A stretch of DNA of 32,431 nucleotides from the NCBI GenBank assembly GCA_947626015.1, contig CANQQK010000003.1, positions 1-32,431 on the forward strand. The letters run 5' to 3'. Source of the DNA: an uncultured Bacilli bacterium (lineage in GTDB: Bacteria > Bacillota_I > Bacilli_A > RF39 > UBA660). Numbering within the stretch: the stretch's first letter is position 1; every line of letters starts with the position of its first letter. Position numbers and translations under genes: made by a program. This document shows, one piece after another, positions 1,744 to 27,653 of the stretch. The notes beneath the pieces were generated by a model that was not told the DNA's origin, searched no databases, and saw only the letters and a list, made by a program, of their open reading frames with translations.

Positions 1744-1772
1744 TTGACTTTTTAAATAATAATTAATATAAT
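1744..1772 (+). promoter_or_regulatory. sigma-A promoter of ileS leader
   Basis: TTGACT (1744-1749), 17 bp spacer, TATAAT (1767-1772). Confidence 0.85.
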
Positions 1773-1784
1773 GAACCTTGTAAA

Positions 1785-1991
1785 GCAATTGATGAAGACG
1801 TCAAATATGGGATTTTATAGAGAAACTGTGGTTGGTGGAAACAGGGAAATGAAGATATTTGAAGATCACTTCGGATGCGATTTAGGGATAATCTAAATAC
1901 GTTACTCGCGTTAAGAGAATAAGTGCATGAATAAATCATGAATTAAGGTGGTACCACGGAAATATCCGTCCTTTAATTTATGATTTTTTTT
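1785..1991 (+). ncRNA. T-box riboswitch, Ile specifier (AUC)
   Basis: Stem I has an AGAGA bulge (1819-1823), GGTGGAA loop and specifier ATC (1865-1867). Stem IIA/B CTC-GCGTTAA-GAG. Stem III CATGA/TCATG. T-box AAGGTGGTACCACGG with antiterminator AAGG-TGGTACC-ACGG/CCGT-CCTT. U-tract 1984-1991. Confidence 0.93.
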
Positions 1992-2014
1992 ATTTTATTA
2001 GAAAGGATGTTATT

Positions 2015-5000
2015 ATGAAAAATTTTAAAGAATTAGATCGTCGTAGTGTTCATGAAGTTGAAAGTTCGATCTTAGATGAATGGAAGAAGATGAATATCCT
2101 TGATATGACCATTAAAAATCGTGATGGTAAAAAAGATTGGGTATTCTATGATGGACCAATATATGCTAATGCTAAACCAGGAATCCATCATGTTTTAGCT
2201 AAAGCTATTAAGGATTCTTTTTGTAAATATAAAACGATGCAAGGTTATCGTGTTTTAAGAAAGATTGGTCTTGATACTCATGGCCTACCAATTGAAGTTA
2301 ATGTTGAAAAGAAACTAGGCTTTAAGACGAAAGCTGATATCGAAGCTTTCGGTATTGAAAATTTCTGTAAGGAATGTAATAAAGCAACCGCATTAAATAT
2401 CGATGAAATAAATTTAGTTACAGATATGATGGGACAATTTATCGATTGTGATCATCCTTATGTAACTTGTAGTAATGAATTTATTGAATCTGAATGGTGG
2501 ATTTTAAAAGAAATGGATAAAAAGGGAGTCTTATATCATGGTGATAAAGTATTACCTTATTGTCCTCGTTGTGGTACGGAATTATCTGCTAATGAAGTAT
2601 CTCAAGGTTATGAAAATGTTTCTGTAAATACGGTTATTGTTCCTTTTAAGAGAGTTGATAGTGATGAATATTTCTTAGTATGGACAACAACTCCTTGGAC
2701 ATTACTTGCTAATGTAGCAATCTGTGTTAATCCTAATATGACCTATGTTAAAGTAGAATCTATGGGTTATAAATTTATTATTGCTGAATCTTTAGCTAAC
2801 AAAGTATTAGGTGATGAATTTAAAGTCTTAGATACGTTTGTTGGTACGGATTTAGTTGGTATAAAATATGAACAATTATTACCTTTTGTTAAGGTTGAAG
2901 GTAAAGCATTTGAGGTTATAGCTGATGATTATGTTACTGCTGAAGATGGTACGGGTATTGTTCATATTGCTCCAGCATATGGTGTTGATGATAATCGTGT
3001 ATGTGCTGAAAATGGTATTGCTTTTGTTAATCCAGTTGGTAAGGACGGATGTTATACTGAAGGACCTTGGAAGGGTACATTAGTTACCTCTCCGGACTTA
3101 GAGTTAGATATCATCAAATACTTAAAGGAAAATGATAAATTATTTAAGAAGATTAAGATGAACCATGATTACCCACATTGTTGGCGTTGTCATTCTCCAC
3201 TAATCTATTTCACTAAACCTGCTTGGTATATTAGAACAACCCAATATAAGAAAGAGATTATTGAAGCTAATAAGAGTGTTAATTGGTATCCAGAATTCGT
3301 AGGTACTAAAAGATTCAATAACTGGCTTGAAAATATGGTTGACTGGGGTATCAGTCGTAACCGTTATTGGGGTTGCCCAATGCCTATTTGGATCTGTGAT
3401 GATTGTGGTGAAAAACATGTTATTGGTTCAATAAAAGAATTACAAGATATGTTGATCGAAGATGTTGATGTATCAAAGATGGAATTACATCGTCCATATG
3501 TTGATGATCTTCATCTAAAATGTCCACATTGTAATGGTCGTATGACAAGAGTAATCGATGTAATGGATGTATGGTTCGATTCTGGTGCTATGCCATATGC
3601 TTCCTTCCATTATCCATTTGAAAATAAAGAATTGTTTGAAAGTCAATTCCCAGCTGATTTCATTGCTGAAGGAGTCGATCAAACGCGTGGTTGGTTCAAT
3701 GCTTTAATCTGTATATCAACAATTATTTCTGGTAAATCAAGTTTTAAAAATGTTGTTGTAAATGATATGGTCTTGGATGCTAATGGTAAGAAGATGAGTA
3801 AATCAACAGGTAATGTTGTTGATCCAACCGTTGCTTTAACGCAATATGGTGCTGATAATGTTAGATGGTATATGTTCTATGCCTCTCCGGTATGGACACC
3901 ACTTAAATATGATGAAGCTGGTGTTAAAGAAGTTCATTCTAAATTCTTTAACCCATTTAAGAATACTTATTCATTCTTCCAAATGTATGCTAATATCGAT
4001 CATATCGATATCGATGATTGTAAGGTACCTTACGCTAAACGTGAAGAAATCGATAAATGGTTATTGAGTAAGTATCATAAACTACTAAAGAATGTTACGG
4101 ATGCTTATGAAAAATATGATTTAAATGAAGTCGTTAAACTTATAACTTCATTCGTATCTGAAGATTTATCTAATTGGTATATTCGTCGTAATCGTAATCG
4201 TTTCTGGGCTAGTACTTTAGATAATTCTAAGAAGTCTGTTTATATGACAACCTATGAAGTATTAGTTGGTCTATGTAAGATGTGTGCCCCAATTATTCCA
4301 TATACTACCGAAGAGATATATCGTAATTTAACGGGTGAAAAATCAGTTCATCTTGCTGACTTCCCTAAATATGATAAGAAACTTATCAATGAAGAAGTTG
4401 AAGTTCGTATGGACTTAGTAAGAGATTTAATCTCTACAGGTCGTTATGTTCGTGAAGAAACTAAGATTAAAGTTCGTCAACCAATTGCTGAATGTTTAAT
4501 CGATGGTAAATATGAAAGCATTTTAGGTGACTTAGTAAATCTAATCAAAGAGGAATTAAATGTTAAAAAAGTAACCTATGTTGATGATTTATCTAAGTAT
4601 ATGAACTTTACGATTAAACCTAACTTTAAGATTTGTGGTGCTATCTTAGGATCAAAGATGAAGGAATATCAAAATGCTTTATTAGATCTAAGTAATGAAG
4701 ATATTGAATCAATATTAAAAGAAGAAACGATAACGATCGATTTCGATGGAGGAAGATTAGATATAACTCCTGATATGGTTGATGTTCGTATTGAATCTAA
4801 AGAAGGATTTAATGTTGGTATGGAGAATAATAAATTCATTATTCTTAATACCGAATTAACTCGTGATTTAATCCTTGAAGGATTAGCTAGAGAATTTGTA
4901 TCTAAGGTCCAAAATATGCGTAAGACTTCCGGATTTGAAATTGCTGATCGTATTAAACTTTATTATCAAGGTGATGATGAAGTATTAGAAGCTTTAGATA

Positions 5001-5116
5001 GCTTTAAAGACTATGTCAAAGATGAAACCCTTGCTACTACTTATGAAGTTAAAGATGGTGGGGAAGTCGTTGATATCAATGGTCATGAAGTTAAAGTAAG
5101 TATTGAAAAAGAATAG
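2015..5116 (+). CDS. ileS: Isoleucine--tRNA ligase, type 2 (IleRS2) with GIHH signature
   Basis: DGP..AN..PGIHH, WTTTPWTL editing motif, DWGISRNRYWG (type 2), KMSKS, 1033 aa with type-2 C-terminus. Ile T-box upstream. Confidence 0.97.
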   Translation: MKNFKELDRRSVHEVESSILDEWKKMNILDMTIKNRDGKKDWVFYDGPIYANAKPGIHHVLAKAIKDSFCKYKTMQGYRVLRKIGLDTHGLPIEVNVEKKLGFKTKADIEAFGIENFCKECNKATALNIDEINLVTDMMGQFIDCDHPYVTCSNEFIESEWWILKEMDKKGVLYHGDKVLPYCPRCGTELSANEVSQGYENVSVNTVIVPFKRVDSDEYFLVWTTTPWTLLANVAICVNPNMTYVKVESMGYKFIIAESLANKVLGDEFKVLDTFVGTDLVGIKYEQLLPFVKVEGKAFEVIADDYVTAEDGTGIVHIAPAYGVDDNRVCAENGIAFVNPVGKDGCYTEGPWKGTLVTSPDLELDIIKYLKENDKLFKKIKMNHDYPHCWRCHSPLIYFTKPAWYIRTTQYKKEIIEANKSVNWYPEFVGTKRFNNWLENMVDWGISRNRYWGCPMPIWICDDCGEKHVIGSIKELQDMLIEDVDVSKMELHRPYVDDLHLKCPHCNGRMTRVIDVMDVWFDSGAMPYASFHYPFENKELFESQFPADFIAEGVDQTRGWFNALICISTIISGKSSFKNVVVNDMVLDANGKKMSKSTGNVVDPTVALTQYGADNVRWYMFYASPVWTPLKYDEAGVKEVHSKFFNPFKNTYSFFQMYANIDHIDIDDCKVPYAKREEIDKWLLSKYHKLLKNVTDAYEKYDLNEVVKLITSFVSEDLSNWYIRRNRNRFWASTLDNSKKSVYMTTYEVLVGLCKMCAPIIPYTTEEIYRNLTGEKSVHLADFPKYDKKLINEEVEVRMDLVRDLISTGRYVREETKIKVRQPIAECLIDGKYESILGDLVNLIKEELNVKKVTYVDDLSKYMNFTIKPNFKICGAILGSKMKEYQNALLDLSNEDIESILKEETITIDFDGGRLDITPDMVDVRIESKEGFNVGMENNKFIILNTELTRDLILEGLAREFVSKVQNMRKTSGFEIADRIKLYYQGDDEVLEALDSFKDYVKDETLATTYEVKDGGEVVDINGHEVKVSIEKE

Positions 5117-24001: not shown

Positions 24002-24009
24002 ATGTTCAG

Positions 24010-24217
24010 TGATACGGAGATAATGTACTTAGTAAAGATATGATGTATCTATTAGAGAAGGAATATCAAAGGCTGAAAGTATTCCAGATTAAATCATATT
24101 TTGAATTTCATACATAGGAGTATCAATCGTGTAATCGCGTTAAGATAATAAGTGCATGTAAGTCATGAACTAAGGTGGTACCACGGGAATACCCGTCCTT
24201 AGATTCATGGCTTTTTT
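24010..24217 (+). ncRNA. T-box riboswitch, Phe specifier (UUC)
   Basis: Stem I has AGTA/GAA loop E, AGAGA bulge, GGCTGAAA loop and specifier TTC (24107-24109). IIA/B ATC-GCGTTAA-GAT. Stem III CATG/CATG. Antiterminator CTAAGG-TGGTACC-ACGGG/CCCGT-CCTTAG. U-tract 24212-24217. Confidence 0.94.
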
Positions 24218-24237: not shown

Positions 24238-25287
24238 ATGCAAGAATTAGCGGATACAATAAAGACGGATTTATTAAAAGAGATTAAAGATATCGATAAA
24301 GAACAAGATTTAGTAGAATTAAAAGCTAAATATATTGGTAAATCAGGTAGAATTACTGAATTAACGAAGAATATGCGTGATCTTTCGGTTGATGAAAGAA
24401 AAGAGGTTGGTTTAATCTCTAATAAGTTAAAGGAAGAAGCTACGAAGATCATTGAAGATAAGGAAAAAGAGATTCATGATCGTATTCTTAATGAGAAGTT
24501 AAGTAAGGAAGTTATCGATATCAGTTTACCTGCTACTAAGGTTTGTAATGGTGCTCCTAATATCTTAGAGAAGGTTATTGAAGAGGTTGAAGAAACATTT
24601 ATGTCTATGGGATATGATGTTGTTGATGGACCAGAAATTGAAGAGGATAAGTATAACTTTGAGTTATTAAATATTCCTAAGGGACATGCAGCTAGAGATG
24701 CTCAAGATACCTTCTATATTGAAGGCGATGAGATCTTGCTTCGCAGTCAAACATCACCAGTTCAAGTTCGTACGATGCTTAAATATCAAGGTAAGGAACC
24801 AATTCGTATGATATGTCCTGGTAAGACCTATCGTCGTGATGATGATGATGCTACTCACTCACATCAATTCATGCAAATCGAAGGGTTGCTTGTCGATAAG
24901 GATATCTCCTTATGTGATCTAAAGGGAACCTTTGATACGATTGCTAAGAAGTTGTTTGGTCCAGATTGTGTAACACGTTTCCGTCCATCTTATTATCAAT
25001 TTACAGAACCAAGTGTTGAAACCGATATCTCATGTTTTGCTTGTCATGGTAAGGGTTGTGCCCTTTGTAAAAATACCGGATGGATTACCATTAGTGGTGC
25101 CGGTATGGTACATCCAAATGTTTTAAAAAATTGTGGTTATGATCCTAAAGAGTGGAGTGGTTTTGCTTTCGGTTTTGGTGCTGAAAGATGTGCGATGCTT
25201 AAATATGGTATCGATGATATCAGAACATTCTATAATACGGATTTAAGAGAATTAGGGGCTTTTGATCGAAAGGATGGTGAGCAATAA
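24238..25287 (+). CDS. pheS: Phenylalanine--tRNA ligase alpha subunit
   Basis: Start ATG 24238 after AGAGGG. H.ARD.QDTF, LRSQTS, D.THS.QF.Q.EG, FRPSYYQFTEPS, GFAFGFG.ER and CxxC..GC..C insert. Confidence 0.97.
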   Translation: MQELADTIKTDLLKEIKDIDKEQDLVELKAKYIGKSGRITELTKNMRDLSVDERKEVGLISNKLKEEATKIIEDKEKEIHDRILNEKLSKEVIDISLPATKVCNGAPNILEKVIEEVEETFMSMGYDVVDGPEIEEDKYNFELLNIPKGHAARDAQDTFYIEGDEILLRSQTSPVQVRTMLKYQGKEPIRMICPGKTYRRDDDDATHSHQFMQIEGLLVDKDISLCDLKGTFDTIAKKLFGPDCVTRFRPSYYQFTEPSVETDISCFACHGKGCALCKNTGWITISGAGMVHPNVLKNCGYDPKEWSGFAFGFGAERCAMLKYGIDDIRTFYNTDLRELGAFDRKDGEQ

Positions 25288-27653
25288 TGATAAGTTTAAA
25301 TTGGGTTAAAGATTATGTCGATCTTGAAGGTGAAGATTTAAAAGAACTTGCGGTTAAAGTAACCAAGGGTGGTTTAAATGTTGAAGGCGTTATTACGAAC
25401 CATATCGATAATTTGGTCATTGGTAAGATCGTAGAATGTTATCCACATCCGGATAGTGATCACTTAAATATCTGTAAGGTTGATGATGGTAAAGGTATTC
25501 GTCAAATCGTTTGTGGTGCAAGCAATGTTCGTGAAGGTTTAAAGGTTATTGTTGCTTTGCCAGGAGCTATTTTACCAGGCAATGTTGAGATTAAGGCCGG
25601 TAAGATTCGTAATCAAGAATCTAATGGTATGATCTGTGCAATGTTTGAATTAGGTTTGGAAGAGAAGACTGAAGAAACCTATGCTAAAGGTATTACGGAA
25701 CTTGATGATGATGCTCCAATTGGTCAAGACCCACTTGCATATTTAGGTCTTGATGATACGATCTATGATTTAGATAATCATAAACGTCGTAATAATGATG
25801 TTTATTATCATATTGGTTTTGCTTATGAAGTTGCAACGGTTTTAAATAAAAAGGTTAAATTACCAGAAGCTAACTATAAGGAGATTAAAGATAATATTAA
25901 AGATCATTTTAAATTAGATGTTAAAACTCCTAAATGTCCATTCTATATGGCGAAGATGGTTAAAAATGTTAAGGTTGGACCATCTCCAGAATTCATGCAA
26001 AAACGTCTTAAGAGTGCCGGCATGCGTTCAATTAATAATGTTGTTGATATCTCTAACTATGTAATGTTGGAATATGGTCAACCAATGCATTTCTTCGATT
26101 ATGATTCCCTAGGTGGACATGTCTTAGTAAGGGATGCTTTAGAAAATGAAGAGATTATCACTCTTGATGGTAAGACACGTACTTTAACAAGCAATGATAT
26201 CGTTATTACTGATGGTAAGAAACCAGTATGTATCGCTGGGGTTATGGGTGGTGAAAATACCGAAGTAGAAGATACTACAACAACCATCCTTATCGAATCC
26301 GCTATCTTTGATTCTGTATCGATTCGTAATACCGCTAATCGCTTAGATCTAAAGAGTGAAGCATCTATTCGTTATGGTAAAGGTTTAAACTATGAATATA
26401 CGATTGCGGCTATGAATCGTGCTTGCTATCTTCTTGAAAAATATGCTGGTGGTGAAGTATTATCAGGAGAAGTCTTACATGATAAGGTTGATAAGACCTC
26501 TAAGGAACTTGACTTTGTTGGTGATGAAATCAATAAGTTACTAGGAATCAAGATCAGTGATGATGATATTAAAGTAGAACTTGAAAGATTAGATTTCCCT
26601 TATACATATAATAAGGGAACTTTCCATGTTATAATTCCTAATCGTCGTTTAGATGTCGAACCTAATATCAATGATATTGCGGAAGAGATTGGACGTTTCT
26701 ATGGTTATGAGAATTTGGTTTCAACCATTCCTCGTGTACCAATTAGAAGAGGTGAGTATGCACCTGATGTTAAGATTAGAAAAGAGATTTCTAAAAGACT
26801 TCGTACTTTAGGTTTAAATGAAGTTAAAACCTATACTTTAACTAGTCCAGAGATGGCATCAACATTCAAATATGATAATATGGAAAGTATCGTTTTACCA
26901 AAACCAATGAGTGTTGATAAATCCGTTATTAGAACATCAATCTTACCTTCACTACTTAATACATATAACTATAATAAAGCACGTAAGGTTAATGATGTAA
27001 TGATCTACGAGATTGCTAAAACCTATGATAAGGATTATAGTGAAACGATGAAATGTGCTATCTTGATGAAAGGTAATTATATAACGACTAGTTGGTCAAA
27101 TAATACACTTAAATGTGATTTCTATTTGATTAAAGGAATCATTGAAAATGTCTTTGATTTCTTAGGATTTAAAAATCGTTATGAATTCGTTGTTGAAAAA
27201 GATGTTAAGGAATTACATCCAGGTATTGCTGCACGTATCTTATTGGATCGTGAACCAATTGGTATTATTGGTCATCTTCATCCATCCCTATTAAAGGATG
27301 ATATCTATGTTGCTGAATTTGCTATCAATCCATTGATGGCTAAGGTTAAACCAATTAAGTTTAAAGATGCTAATAAATATCCAGAGATGGAAAAAGATGT
27401 TGCTTTCATCGTTGATAATGAAGTAACGAATAAAGAATTAGAAGCTGCTATTAAGAAGAGTGGTGGAAGATTACTTGCTAATATTGAAATCTTTGATATC
27501 TATCGTGATATCGAAGAAGGTAAGAAATCAATGGCTTATAAATTAACATTTAAAGATGATTCTAGAACCCTTTCTGATGAAGAGGTTATGAATGTCTTCA
27601 ATAAGATTATCGATGAAGTATGTCAAAAGATGAATGCTAAGTTAAGAGGATAA
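25287..27653 (+). CDS. pheT: Phenylalanine--tRNA ligase beta subunit
   Basis: HPDSD.L, QIVCGA.N, INNVVDISNYVMLEYGQPMH, R.D......D..EE and C-terminal anticodon-binding domain. Confidence 0.97.
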   Translation: MISLNWVKDYVDLEGEDLKELAVKVTKGGLNVEGVITNHIDNLVIGKIVECYPHPDSDHLNICKVDDGKGIRQIVCGASNVREGLKVIVALPGAILPGNVEIKAGKIRNQESNGMICAMFELGLEEKTEETYAKGITELDDDAPIGQDPLAYLGLDDTIYDLDNHKRRNNDVYYHIGFAYEVATVLNKKVKLPEANYKEIKDNIKDHFKLDVKTPKCPFYMAKMVKNVKVGPSPEFMQKRLKSAGMRSINNVVDISNYVMLEYGQPMHFFDYDSLGGHVLVRDALENEEIITLDGKTRTLTSNDIVITDGKKPVCIAGVMGGENTEVEDTTTTILIESAIFDSVSIRNTANRLDLKSEASIRYGKGLNYEYTIAAMNRACYLLEKYAGGEVLSGEVLHDKVDKTSKELDFVGDEINKLLGIKISDDDIKVELERLDFPYTYNKGTFHVIIPNRRLDVEPNINDIAEEIGRFYGYENLVSTIPRVPIRRGEYAPDVKIRKEISKRLRTLGLNEVKTYTLTSPEMASTFKYDNMESIVLPKPMSVDKSVIRTSILPSLLNTYNYNKARKVNDVMIYEIAKTYDKDYSETMKCAILMKGNYITTSWSNNTLKCDFYLIKGIIENVFDFLGFKNRYEFVVEKDVKELHPGIAARILLDREPIGIIGHLHPSLLKDDIYVAEFAINPLMAKVKPIKFKDANKYPEMEKDVAFIVDNEVTNKELEAAIKKSGGRLLANIEIFDIYRDIEEGKKSMAYKLTFKDDSRTLSDEEVMNVFNKIIDEVCQKMNAKLRG

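What the first reader, a model, noticed from the sequence alone, without database searches (positions are those of the whole stretch)
1921..1991. ileS T-box uses a non-canonical terminator that encloses the antiterminator and invades Stem III
Established: transcriptional T-boxes switch because the 3' strand of the antiterminator (here CCGUCCUU) alternatively pairs with a downstream complement to form the terminator. Seen: no such complement (GGACGG-like) lies before the U-tract. Instead 1970-1986 (CCUUUAAUUUAUGAUUU) pairs with 1933-1948 (AAAUCAUGAAUUAAGG), 16 bp with one bulged U and one G-U. This extends antiterminator helix A1 through the linker and the 3' strand of Stem III (UCAUG 1936-1940) and ends at U8 (1984-1991). 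Inference: the OFF state keeps the antiterminator folded but unfolds Stem III. Uncharged tRNA-Ile would hold the Stem III/antiterminator discriminator together and stop the helix zipping to the U-tract. I do not know of this expression platform being described.
Basis: partly seen in the sequence, partly recalled or inferred. Interest (0 to 1): 0.88.

Follow-up and report, generated by a model that had tools for sequence, protein, structure and literature searches.

The report
T-box terminator that swallows its antiterminator
The tRNA-sensing switch in front of the isoleucyl-tRNA synthetase gene of this uncultured gut bacterium seems to stop transcription with a hairpin that keeps the usual "go" helices and unzips a neighbouring stem instead, a layout shared by its relatives and not found described in the papers searched.

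Summary
Window 1780-1976 is a T-box leader (RF00230, 116 bits) upstream of ileS. Bases 1933-1948 pair with 1970-1986 and run into a U8 tract. No hairpin abuts that tract if the 5' strand is left out. The predicted terminator keeps helices A1 and A2. It extends A1 through the AA linker and the 3' strand of Stem III.

The topology recurs with different sequences:
- 5 of 10 T-boxes in this genome, including pheST in this window
- all 21 ileS leaders of the genus whose upstream DNA is assembled
- 28 of 65 ileS T-boxes in wider relatives
- 14 of 54 T-box loci from other genera of the family
- 2 of 154 from other families of the class

Own tails pair with own Stem III strands far better than other leaders' tails or shuffled tails do.

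A Shine-Dalgarno sequestrator is possible in the window but is not conserved.

Two reviews, the TBDB paper and preprint, and five literature searches gave only the canonical model. TBDB's terminator search cannot see this topology.

The mechanism, tRNA locking Stem III against strand invasion, is inferred, and no RNA data could be had. I rate it a new variant of a known kind, interest 0.74.

The parts
1744..1772 (+). sigma-70-like promoter (TTGACT, 17 nt spacer, TATAAT); puts the transcript start at about 1779-1780, where the T-box match begins
   Evidence: 11 of 12 consensus matches. A pattern match only.
1780..1976 (+). T-box leader, from Stem I to the 3' strand of the antiterminator
   Evidence: RF00230, 116 bits (gathering score 93), E 2.8e-25, model positions 1-219
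1865..1867 (+). specifier codon AUC (Ile) in the specifier loop, followed by A1868
   Evidence: Read from the cmscan alignment. That this is the codon position in the loop is partly recalled knowledge. The genome has a tRNA-Ile(GAU).
1921..1925 (+). 5' purine string (AAGUG) of the RRRxG-Stem III-AA motif
   Evidence: for the sequence; the motif is as quoted in the review passages
1926..1940 (+). Stem III hairpin (1926-1930 paired with 1936-1940): an ON-state element whose 3' strand is taken by the terminator
   Evidence: Stem III alone -3.6 kcal/mol; it forms in the fold without the tail
1941..1942 (+). conserved AA linker of the discriminator; paired with U1978 and U1977 in the terminator
   Evidence: alignment columns 28/72 are A-U in 40 of 46 rows, columns 29/71 in 33 of 46
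1945..1973 (+). antiterminator: A1 (1945-1948 with 1970-1973), T-box bulge UGGUACC (1949-1955), A2 (1956-1959 with 1966-1969). Predicted to persist in both the ON and the OFF state.
1933..1944 (+). 5' strand of the terminator extension: A-rich loop end, Stem III 3' strand and linker
1975..1986 (+). 3' strand of the terminator extension (the tail); U1974 is bulged
   Evidence: own duplex -9.0 kcal/mol; mononucleotide-shuffled tails, pooled over all 46 leaders, mean -3.7
1984..1991 (+). U8 tract of the intrinsic terminator
2002..2009 (+). Shine-Dalgarno region AAAGGAUG, complementary to 1967-1974 (a possible weak sequestrator, not conserved)
2015..5116 (+). ileS, 1033 aa: class I tRNA synthetase core, anticodon-binding domain and a C-terminal DUF5915 domain
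24008..24203 (+). second T-box leader in the window, upstream of pheS and pheT
   Evidence: 78.7 bits, below the gathering score, E 9.7e-18; pheS and pheT domains
24160..24217 (+). terminator of the pheST T-box, same enclosing topology: 24160-24175 pairs with 24197-24213 around an intact A1/A2, then U6 at 24212-24217

Best explanation
This is a transcriptional T-box riboswitch for tRNA-Ile with a rearranged expression platform. The leader has all the usual tRNA-binding parts: Stem I with an AUC specifier, Stem III with its purine flanks, the UGGU bulge, and helices A1 and A2. The terminator is not built from the 3' strands of A1 and A2. Instead the 12-13 bases transcribed right after A1 pair with the AA linker and the 3' strand of Stem III, so helix A1 is lengthened downward into a hairpin of about 16 pairs that carries A2 on top and ends in U8. 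OFF state (inferred): with no uncharged tRNA latched, the tail zips down from the base of A1, displaces the 5-pair Stem III by strand exchange, and RNA polymerase terminates at 1984-1991. [quoted passage not shown] Stem III's 3' strand and the AA linker are then unavailable, the extension cannot form in time, and polymerase reads into ileS. The competition is between Stem III and the extension, not between antiterminator and terminator. Shown here: the sequence complementarity, its conservation and covariation, its restriction to one lineage, and the matching tRNA. Inferred: termination at the U-tract, dependence on tRNA, and persistence of A1/A2 in the OFF state.
For: T-box identity: (116 bits). 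The downstream gene is ileS. tRNA-Ile(GAU) ends in ACCA, matching UGGU.

The helix is real and better than chance (z -3.65, 0 of 200 shuffles). No alternative hairpin reaches the U-tract.

Energies: Stem III + A1 + A2 is -8.8 kcal/mol; extension + A1 + A2 is -16.4. The extension without A1/A2 is only -6.3.

The same topology with different sequences occurs in 5 of 10 T-box loci of this genome. It occurs in 21 of 21 genus genomes whose ileS upstream region is assembled, as 19 distinct sequences.

On an unfitted MAFFT alignment of 46 distinct leaders:
- 81.0% of cells are paired against 74.9% in shuffles (0 of 500 as high).
- 72 cells have changes on both sides against 24.1 (0 of 500).
- Slid partners give 35-59% paired.

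Own 5' strand with own tail gives -10.8 kcal/mol on average. Other leaders' tails give -5.5 and shuffled tails -3.7. The own tail ranks in the top 3 of 46 for 26 of 46 leaders.

A Stem III hairpin of at least 4 pairs forms in the tail-less fold of 37 of 46 leaders. In all 37 the tail captures at least 4 of its bases in the full-length MFE.

The discriminator motifs are kept in these leaders. The review passages state that Stem III is indispensable for binding the tRNA 3' end.
Against: No transcript ends, no RNA-seq and no biochemistry: no RNA run was listed.

The 46 aligned leaders were picked by a classifier that looks for this helix, so the energy and covariation figures are inflated by selection. 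Only the genus count (21 of 21) and the per-group tallies are free of that selection.

The base of the window's helix is very A-U rich. Its tail duplex (-9.0) is among the weaker ones of the set, so termination may be leaky.

Published work holds that tRNA stacking on helix A1 decides ON against OFF. If A1 is common to both states that logic does not carry over, and nothing here shows that a Stem III latch alone can hold back a 12-pair zipper.

The window's MFE uses a slipped A1 register with one bulge G paired, so 'antiterminator intact' is not exact.

All structures are nearest-neighbour predictions, and the classes were assigned by a heuristic with some unresolved cases.
Confidence: 0.7

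Rival explanations
1. The real switch is translational. The 3' strands of A2 and A1 (1967-1974) pair with the Shine-Dalgarno region (2002-2009) as a sequestrator, as in actinobacterial ileS T-boxes. The hairpin with the U-tract would be incidental or secondary.
For: Eight contiguous pairs are possible. The duplex is -9.2 kcal/mol, and only 3.7% of 429 crude gene-start regions of this genome pair as well with that strand. This would keep the canonical logic of mutually exclusive helices.
Against: As a hairpin with a 27-base loop it is only -6.4 kcal/mol. That is weaker than the ON state (-8.8) and far weaker than the terminator (-16.4). It is not conserved: over 38 distinct enclosing leaders the median background fraction is 0.32, and 9 fall below 0.05. 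The A1 3' strand resembles an anti-SD sequence in any T-box, so some complementarity is expected. A helix followed by a U-tract is present in every one of the 21 genus orthologues.
Confidence: 0.05
2. The hairpin is the terminator, but the OFF state does not keep a native antiterminator. A1 slips or melts and part of the T-box bulge is drawn into the helix, so the switch still works by destroying the tRNA-binding site, as in the bulge-sequestering T-boxes of the same genomes.
For: The window's MFE pairs one bulge G with C1970 and shifts A1 by one base. In the same genome and in the window's closest ileS relatives, other T-boxes have terminators whose 3' strand pairs directly with the A1 5' strand plus the bulge. 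The lineage therefore does use bulge capture.
Against: The slip depends on the extra U in the window and a few close relatives. Most enclosing leaders fold with the 7-base bulge fully open and A1 and A2 in the Rfam register. A1 pairs covary in register: 8 G-C for A-U and 5 A-U for G-C exchanges, with 0 unpaired cells in 46.
Confidence: 0.15
3. The complementarity is a by-product of A+T-rich sequence. The element is a constitutive, leaky attenuator or simply the end of the leader, with no tRNA-dependent choice at this helix.
For: The genome is 31.6% G+C. A-U rich strands pair easily: cross-pairings of unrelated leaders still average -5.5 kcal/mol.
Against: Own pairings are about 5 kcal/mol better than cross-pairings and 7 better than shuffles. 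Changes on both sides are three times the shuffled number. The helix always ends at a U-tract and always starts from A1. The leader keeps every tRNA-binding motif at 116 bits, upstream of the only close IleRS match found in this genome.
Confidence: 0.04

Closest known systems
Canonical transcriptional (class I) T-box riboswitch, e.g. Bacillus subtilis tyrS and glyQS
   Same: Stem I with a specifier codon, Stem III with purine flanks, the UGGN bulge, helices A1 and A2, and an intrinsic terminator with a U-tract that is more stable than the ON fold. It sits upstream of an aminoacyl-tRNA synthetase gene and matches RF00230 above the gathering score.
   Different: In the canonical model the 3' strands of A1 and A2 become the 5' strand of the terminator, so the two folds exclude each other (review passages). 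Here the terminator's 5' strand is the Stem III 3' strand plus the linker plus the A1 5' strand. A1 and A2 are predicted to be present in both states, and the excluded element is Stem III.
Translational (class II) ileS T-box of Mycobacterium tuberculosis and other Actinobacteria
   Same: Same regulated gene and same discriminator. The review passages describe a pre-formed antisequestrator that stays in place while the linker region is dislodged by charged tRNA. That idea is close to 'A1/A2 stay, the Stem III or linker region decides'.
   Different: That system hides the ribosome-binding site and has no terminator. Here a U8 terminator is present and SD pairing is not conserved. The phylum differs, and the window's leader has a full-length Stem I by the Rfam alignment.
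Strand-exchange expression platforms such as the ZTP riboswitch (group 3 in the 2024 JBC review)
   Same: Bases just downstream of an aptamer helix invade that helix to build the terminator. The ligand blocks the invasion by stabilising the helix's tertiary contacts (passage). This is what the T-box here appears to work like.
   Different: The ligand and aptamer differ. There the invaded helix is part of a pseudoknotted small-molecule aptamer. Here it is Stem III of a tRNA-sensing discriminator, and the invasion is nucleated from a helix (A1) that itself binds the ligand's 3' end.
Lineage-specific T-box variants such as the Staphylococcus aureus glyS stem Sa insertion
   Same: A clade-restricted change in the terminator/antiterminator domain of an otherwise standard T-box (abstracts and passages).
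   Different: Stem Sa is an insertion within a canonical mutually exclusive pair of folds. Here nothing is inserted: the pairing partner of the terminator's 3' strand has moved to the other side of the antiterminator.

Membership tests
T-box leader (Rfam RF00230) | Covariance-model score at or above the curated gathering score | tested here: met
   116 bits against a gathering score of 93, full model 1-219
T-box leader (Rfam RF00230) | Specifier codon that matches the amino acid of the regulated gene | tested here: met
   AUC at 1865-1867 followed by a purine (read from the alignment; the codon position in the loop is partly recalled). The gene is ileS.
T-box leader (Rfam RF00230) | 7-base bulge whose UGGN pairs with the NCCA end of the cognate tRNA | tested here: met
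   The bulge is UGGUACC at 1949-1955. The genome's tRNA-Ile(GAU) ends in ACCA.
T-box leader (Rfam RF00230) | Discriminator: RRRxG-Stem III-AA followed by A1, the bulge and A2 | tested here: met
   AAGUG 1921-1925, Stem III 1926-1940, AA 1941-1942, A1/A2 1945-1973. The motif definition is from the passages.
Canonical class I (transcriptional) T-box expression platform | The 3' strands of A1 and A2 form the 5' strand of the terminator, so that terminator and antiterminator exclude each other | tested here: not met
   No complement of 1966-1973 lies before the U-tract. Folding 1949-1991 gives only A2. The only helix abutting U8 uses 1933-1948.
Canonical class I (transcriptional) T-box expression platform | Hairpin followed directly by a U-tract, and more stable than the ON fold | tested here: met
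   U8 at 1984-1991. OFF is -16.4 against ON -8.8 kcal/mol. The TBDB preprint gives -19.5 +/- 7.9 and -7.4 +/- 4.2 for its collection.
Canonical class I (transcriptional) T-box expression platform | tRNA-dependent readthrough of the terminator | not testable with these tools
   No RNA run was listed. In vitro transcription is needed.
Class II (translational) T-box | A sequestrator helix between the antisequestrator's 3' strand and the Shine-Dalgarno sequence, conserved among orthologues, with no terminator | tested here: not met
   Eight pairs are possible in the window but they are not conserved (median background fraction 0.32 over 38 leaders), and a terminator is present.
Strand-exchange expression platform (mechanistic group, not a sequence family) | The downstream strand invades an aptamer helix adjacent to a nucleating helix to form the terminator | tested here: inconclusive
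   The predicted folds fit: the tail captures at least 4 Stem III bases in 37 of 37 leaders that have a predicted Stem III. Kinetics and ligand dependence were not tested.

The most novel reading that the evidence does not exclude
An order of small-genome gut Bacilli (record titles of relatives read 'uncultured Tenericutes' or 'uncultured Bacilli') has rewired the T-box switch so that helix A1 is shared by the ON and OFF states, although published work treats A1's stabilisation by tRNA as the deciding event. Stem III with its purine latch becomes the only switching element. In the same lineage the terminator's 3' strand has moved stepwise along the discriminator: to Stem III, to the A1 5' strand plus bulge, to the A2 5' strand, or to the canonical 3' strands. 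Orthologous ileS leaders have changed type many times. This would be a natural series of expression-platform topologies for one aptamer, and it has escaped at least one database pipeline (TBDB), which looks for terminators only downstream of the bulge.
Probability: 0.45. Interest if true: 0.85.

Novelty: new variant of a known kind. Interest (0 to 1): 0.74.

Why it matters
T-boxes are the textbook case of an RNA that reads another RNA. Their switch is explained by one model: uncharged tRNA stabilises helix A1, and otherwise the A1/A2 3' strands defect to a terminator. A natural, conserved class in which A1 and A2 belong to both states would show that the Stem III latch can carry the regulatory decision alone. 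That role was recognised only in 2019, according to the review passages. Such a class would be a simple system for studying strand invasion against a tertiary latch. It also means that annotation pipelines which look for T-box terminators only 3' of the bulge (TBDB methods) may miss or mislabel a large share of T-boxes in this abundant gut lineage: about a quarter to a half of those examined here. In addition, the orthologous ileS leaders switch between three or four topologies over short evolutionary distances. That makes the clade a good place to study how expression platforms evolve.

Tried and rejected
1. RNA evidence: the look-up of sequencing runs listed no RNA holder. This says nothing about expression.

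3. Papers not held:
- The id that I recalled for Vitreschak 2008.
- Grundy 2002, PMC101844.
- Li 2019, PMC6899168.
- Kreuzer and Henkin 2018, PMC6329474.
- One search failed on a term that was too long.
Supplements were closed, so TBDB's supplementary methods and tables were not seen.

4. First classifiers:
- The version over-called 'bulge' because the bulge paired with upstream bases in the MFE.
- The version mis-called leaders where a short U-run inside or just after the A1 3' strand was taken for the U-tract (for example L169, L288, L210).
- Final tallies come from the third version, which requires at least 5 pairs beyond A1 and tries successive U-tracts.

5. Genome-compaction idea: the enclosing platform is only slightly shorter. 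The median distance from A1 to the U-tract is 12 nt against 15 nt for canonical leaders. That is too small a difference to explain the design.

6. SD-sequestrator reading: tested and set aside.

7. Stem III covariation was not counted on alignment A1, because MAFFT mis-registers its 5' strand. Per-sequence folds were used instead.

8. No covariance model of the new platform was built, and no scan beyond the class or of metagenome contigs was made.

9. The 15 ileS loci without a T-box motif have no RF00230 match within the 700 nt held upstream. Whether a T-box lies further upstream was not checked.

Full report
**Observation**

Window 1780-1976 on the + strand matches the T-box leader model RF00230 over its full length: 116 bits against a gathering score of 93. 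A sigma-70-like promoter lies at 1744-1772 (a pattern match only). The next open frame, 2015-5116, is an isoleucyl-tRNA synthetase with class I core, anticodon-binding and DUF5915 domains.

The Rfam alignment places:
- Stem III at 1926-1930/1936-1940
- the bulge UGGUACC at 1949-1955
- A2 at 1956-1959/1966-1969
- A1 at 1945-1948/1970-1973

1933-1944 pairs with 1975-1986, twelve pairs including one G-U. This continues A1 with U1974 bulged out and runs into U8 at 1984-1991. RNAfold returns this hairpin as the minimum-energy fold of 1921-1993: -19.7 kcal/mol, z -3.65, none of 200 dinucleotide shuffles as good. If everything 5' of the bulge is left out, only the A2 hairpin forms and nothing abuts the U-tract. 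There is therefore no canonical terminator.

**Identity of the switch**

The specifier loop reads AUC at 1865-1867, followed by a purine. The alignment is; the position of the codon in the loop is partly recalled. The genome, 1.15 Mb in 112 contigs, 87% complete and 31.6% G+C, has one tRNA-Ile(GAU). Its 3' end is ACCA, complementary to the UGGU of the bulge. The purine flanks of Stem III (AAGUG before it, AA after it) fit the RRRxG-Stem III-AA motif quoted in the review passages I read. Every tRNA-binding feature of a T-box is thus present.

**Comparative evidence**

The genome has ten RF00230 matches. By the final classifier and by eye:
- Five have the same topology, with the strand just before the U-tract pairing with the Stem III/linker region while A1 and A2 stay closed. 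They lie upstream of ileS, of pheST inside this window (24008-24203, terminator 24160-24217) and of three other genes.
- Two have terminators whose 3' strand pairs with the A1 5' strand plus the bulge.
- One pairs with the end of the bulge plus the A2 5' strand.
- Two look canonical.

ileS was found in 21 of 22 genomes of the genus. In all 21 the linked T-box has the enclosing terminator, as 19 distinct sequences. This count did not depend on choosing leaders by structure.

I aligned 46 distinct enclosing 3' domains with MAFFT, without fitting to any structure. Two false motif hits, L068 and L083, were dropped first. For the window's terminator pairs on this alignment:
- 81.0% of cells are paired against 74.9% in column shuffles (0 of 500 as high).
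- 72 cells have changes on both sides against 24.1 (0 of 500).
- The covariation score is 0.270 against 0.162.
- Sliding the partners by 1-3 columns gives 35-59% paired.

In a cross-pairing test each leader's 5' strand binds its own tail at -10.8 kcal/mol on average. It binds the tails of the other 45 at -5.5 and shuffled own tails at -3.7. The own tail is among the best three of 46 in 26 cases.

In 37 of 46 leaders the fold without the tail contains a Stem III hairpin of at least four pairs. In all 37 the tail takes at least four of its bases in the full-length fold.

The caveat is that these 46 were selected by a classifier that looks for this helix. The energy contrasts are therefore upper estimates.

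**Distribution**

Record titles of the closest public ileS loci read 'uncultured Bacilli', 'uncultured Tenericutes', 'Mycoplasma sp. CAG:877', 'Coprobacillus sp. CAG:605' and 'Candidatus Fimihabitans'. The organism is therefore an uncultured small-genome gut member of the Bacilli.

Final tallies:

| Group | Loci | Enclosing | Bulge-capturing | Canonical | A2 5' strand (extended canonical) | Other |
|---|---|---|---|---|---|---|
| ileS loci of relatives, 75-89% identity | 80 | 28 | 18 | 10 | 9 | 15 without an RF00230 match in the 700 nt held upstream |
| Other genera of the family | 54 | 14 | 4 | 22 | 10 | 3 unresolved, 1 without motif |
| The one other family of the order | 5 | 0 | 2 | 2 | 1 | none |
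| Other families of the class | 154 | 2 | 3 | 123 | 9 | 6 unresolved (5 of them canonical by eye; L155 is a false motif hit), 11 without motif |

The 154 loci from other families came, mixing high- and lower-scoring matches. Both enclosing cases there lie in one 0.9-Mb genome, G018.

The topology is thus common in this order and rare elsewhere among the genomes sampled. Nothing outside the class was examined.

**Rivals**

The duplex is -9.2 kcal/mol, reached by 3.7% of 429 crude gene-start regions. As a hairpin it is only -6.4. Across 38 distinct enclosing leaders the same measure has a median background fraction of 0.32. I take it as the generic resemblance of the A1 3' strand to an anti-SD sequence.

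A slipped or partly bulge-pairing OFF state is possible in the window. It is not the rule in relatives.

Chance complementarity in A+T-rich sequence is answered by the cross-pairing and slide controls.

**Mechanism**

Computed energies are -8.8 kcal/mol for Stem III + A1 + A2 and -16.4 for extension + A1 + A2. The extension without A1/A2 is only -6.3, so the hairpin needs A1/A2 closed to be a good terminator.

The review passages say three things:
- Stem III and its purines are indispensable for binding the tRNA 3' end.
- The purine string latches onto the tRNA-bulge duplex.
- tRNA stacking on helix A1 is treated as the event that decides ON against OFF.

Here A1 is predicted in both states, so the decision must lie elsewhere. 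The only elements that differ between the states are Stem III and the AA linker. My reading has three steps:
1. Stem III forms first.
2. The tail, transcribed immediately after A1 (median 12 nt from A1 to the U-tract), zips down from A1 and displaces Stem III unless uncharged tRNA has latched it.
3. Polymerase either terminates in U8 or passes.

This resembles the strand-exchange platforms described for ZTP riboswitches. All of this is inference from predicted folds and published structures. No transcript data could be had.

**Novelty**

Five full-text searches turned up no description of a T-box terminator that encloses the antiterminator or uses Stem III. The texts I read gave the same result:
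- passages and one section of the 2020 WIREs review
- passages of the 2024 JBC review on expression platforms
- passages of the 2008 BMC Genomics survey
- passages of the 2024 RNA paper on glycyl T-boxes
- passages of the TBDB paper and its preprint

All state or assume the canonical arrangement. [quoted passage not shown] The fallback folds only from the start of the antiterminator. Such a pipeline cannot report this topology.

Older comparative surveys and the 2019 structure papers were not held, and supplements were closed. A prior mention cannot be excluded.

**Evolution**

On a FastTree of the first 300 residues of IleRS (99 rows), the three platform types need at least 15 changes among the 83 rows that have a classified T-box. 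The window's sister group (four loci, 89% identity, support 98) has the bulge-capturing type. Platform type is therefore labile between close orthologues. This is a quick tree with local support values only, and kin are not independent.

**Verdict**

The structural interpretation is supported by conservation and covariation. The mechanism is plausible but untested. It is a new variant of a known kind of riboswitch.

Noticed in passing
window 24008-24217: A second T-box (78.7 bits, below the gathering score) lies upstream of pheS (24238-25287) and pheT (25287-27653). It has the same enclosing terminator: 24160-24175 pairs with 24197-24213, followed by U6.
   Followed up: yes
own genome C1:110-289 (L004) and C17:16211-16388 (L005); ileS loci L070-L073, L097, L106, L107, L113 and others: A second non-canonical T-box platform. 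The strand before the U-tract pairs with the A1 5' strand plus the T-box bulge itself (GGUACC is self-complementary), enclosing A2. It would compete directly with the tRNA 3' end. It was seen in 18 of 80 ileS relatives, including the window's closest ones, and in 3 of 154 loci outside the order (two of these weak).
   Followed up: partly
L042:959-1501 and the equivalent place in L043, L045, L046, L048, L058, L059, L062, L087, L139: In several genomes of the genus and family a CYTH-domain ORF of about 180 aa (Pfam PF01928, E 8e-10 for L042) sits between the Ile T-box and ileS. There the T-box heads a two-gene operon. In the window the T-box abuts ileS directly.
   Followed up: partly
window 1967-1974 and 2002-2009: The A2/A1 3' strands are complementary over 8 bases to the ileS Shine-Dalgarno region. 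This is better than 96% of gene starts in this genome, but it is not conserved in relatives.
   Followed up: yes
own genome C40:1830-2036, minus strand (L007): The T-box upstream of a trpS-like gene has an unusual bulge (UGGCUAA rather than UGGNACC) with a canonical terminator. It scores 84.5 bits.
   Followed up: no
L081, L083, L085, L090, L094, L098, L100, L114, L117, L126, L132, L134, L138, L144, L149: Fifteen of 80 related ileS loci have no RF00230 match (E up to 0.001) in the 700 nt held upstream. In those genomes ileS is either not T-box controlled or the leader lies further away.
   Followed up: partly
window 2015-5116: The IleRS is the long form with a C-terminal DUF5915 domain (1033 aa). 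A histidine-phosphatase-family gene (1125-1739) ends 5 bases before the T-box promoter's -35 element, with no terminator of its own in between.
   Followed up: no
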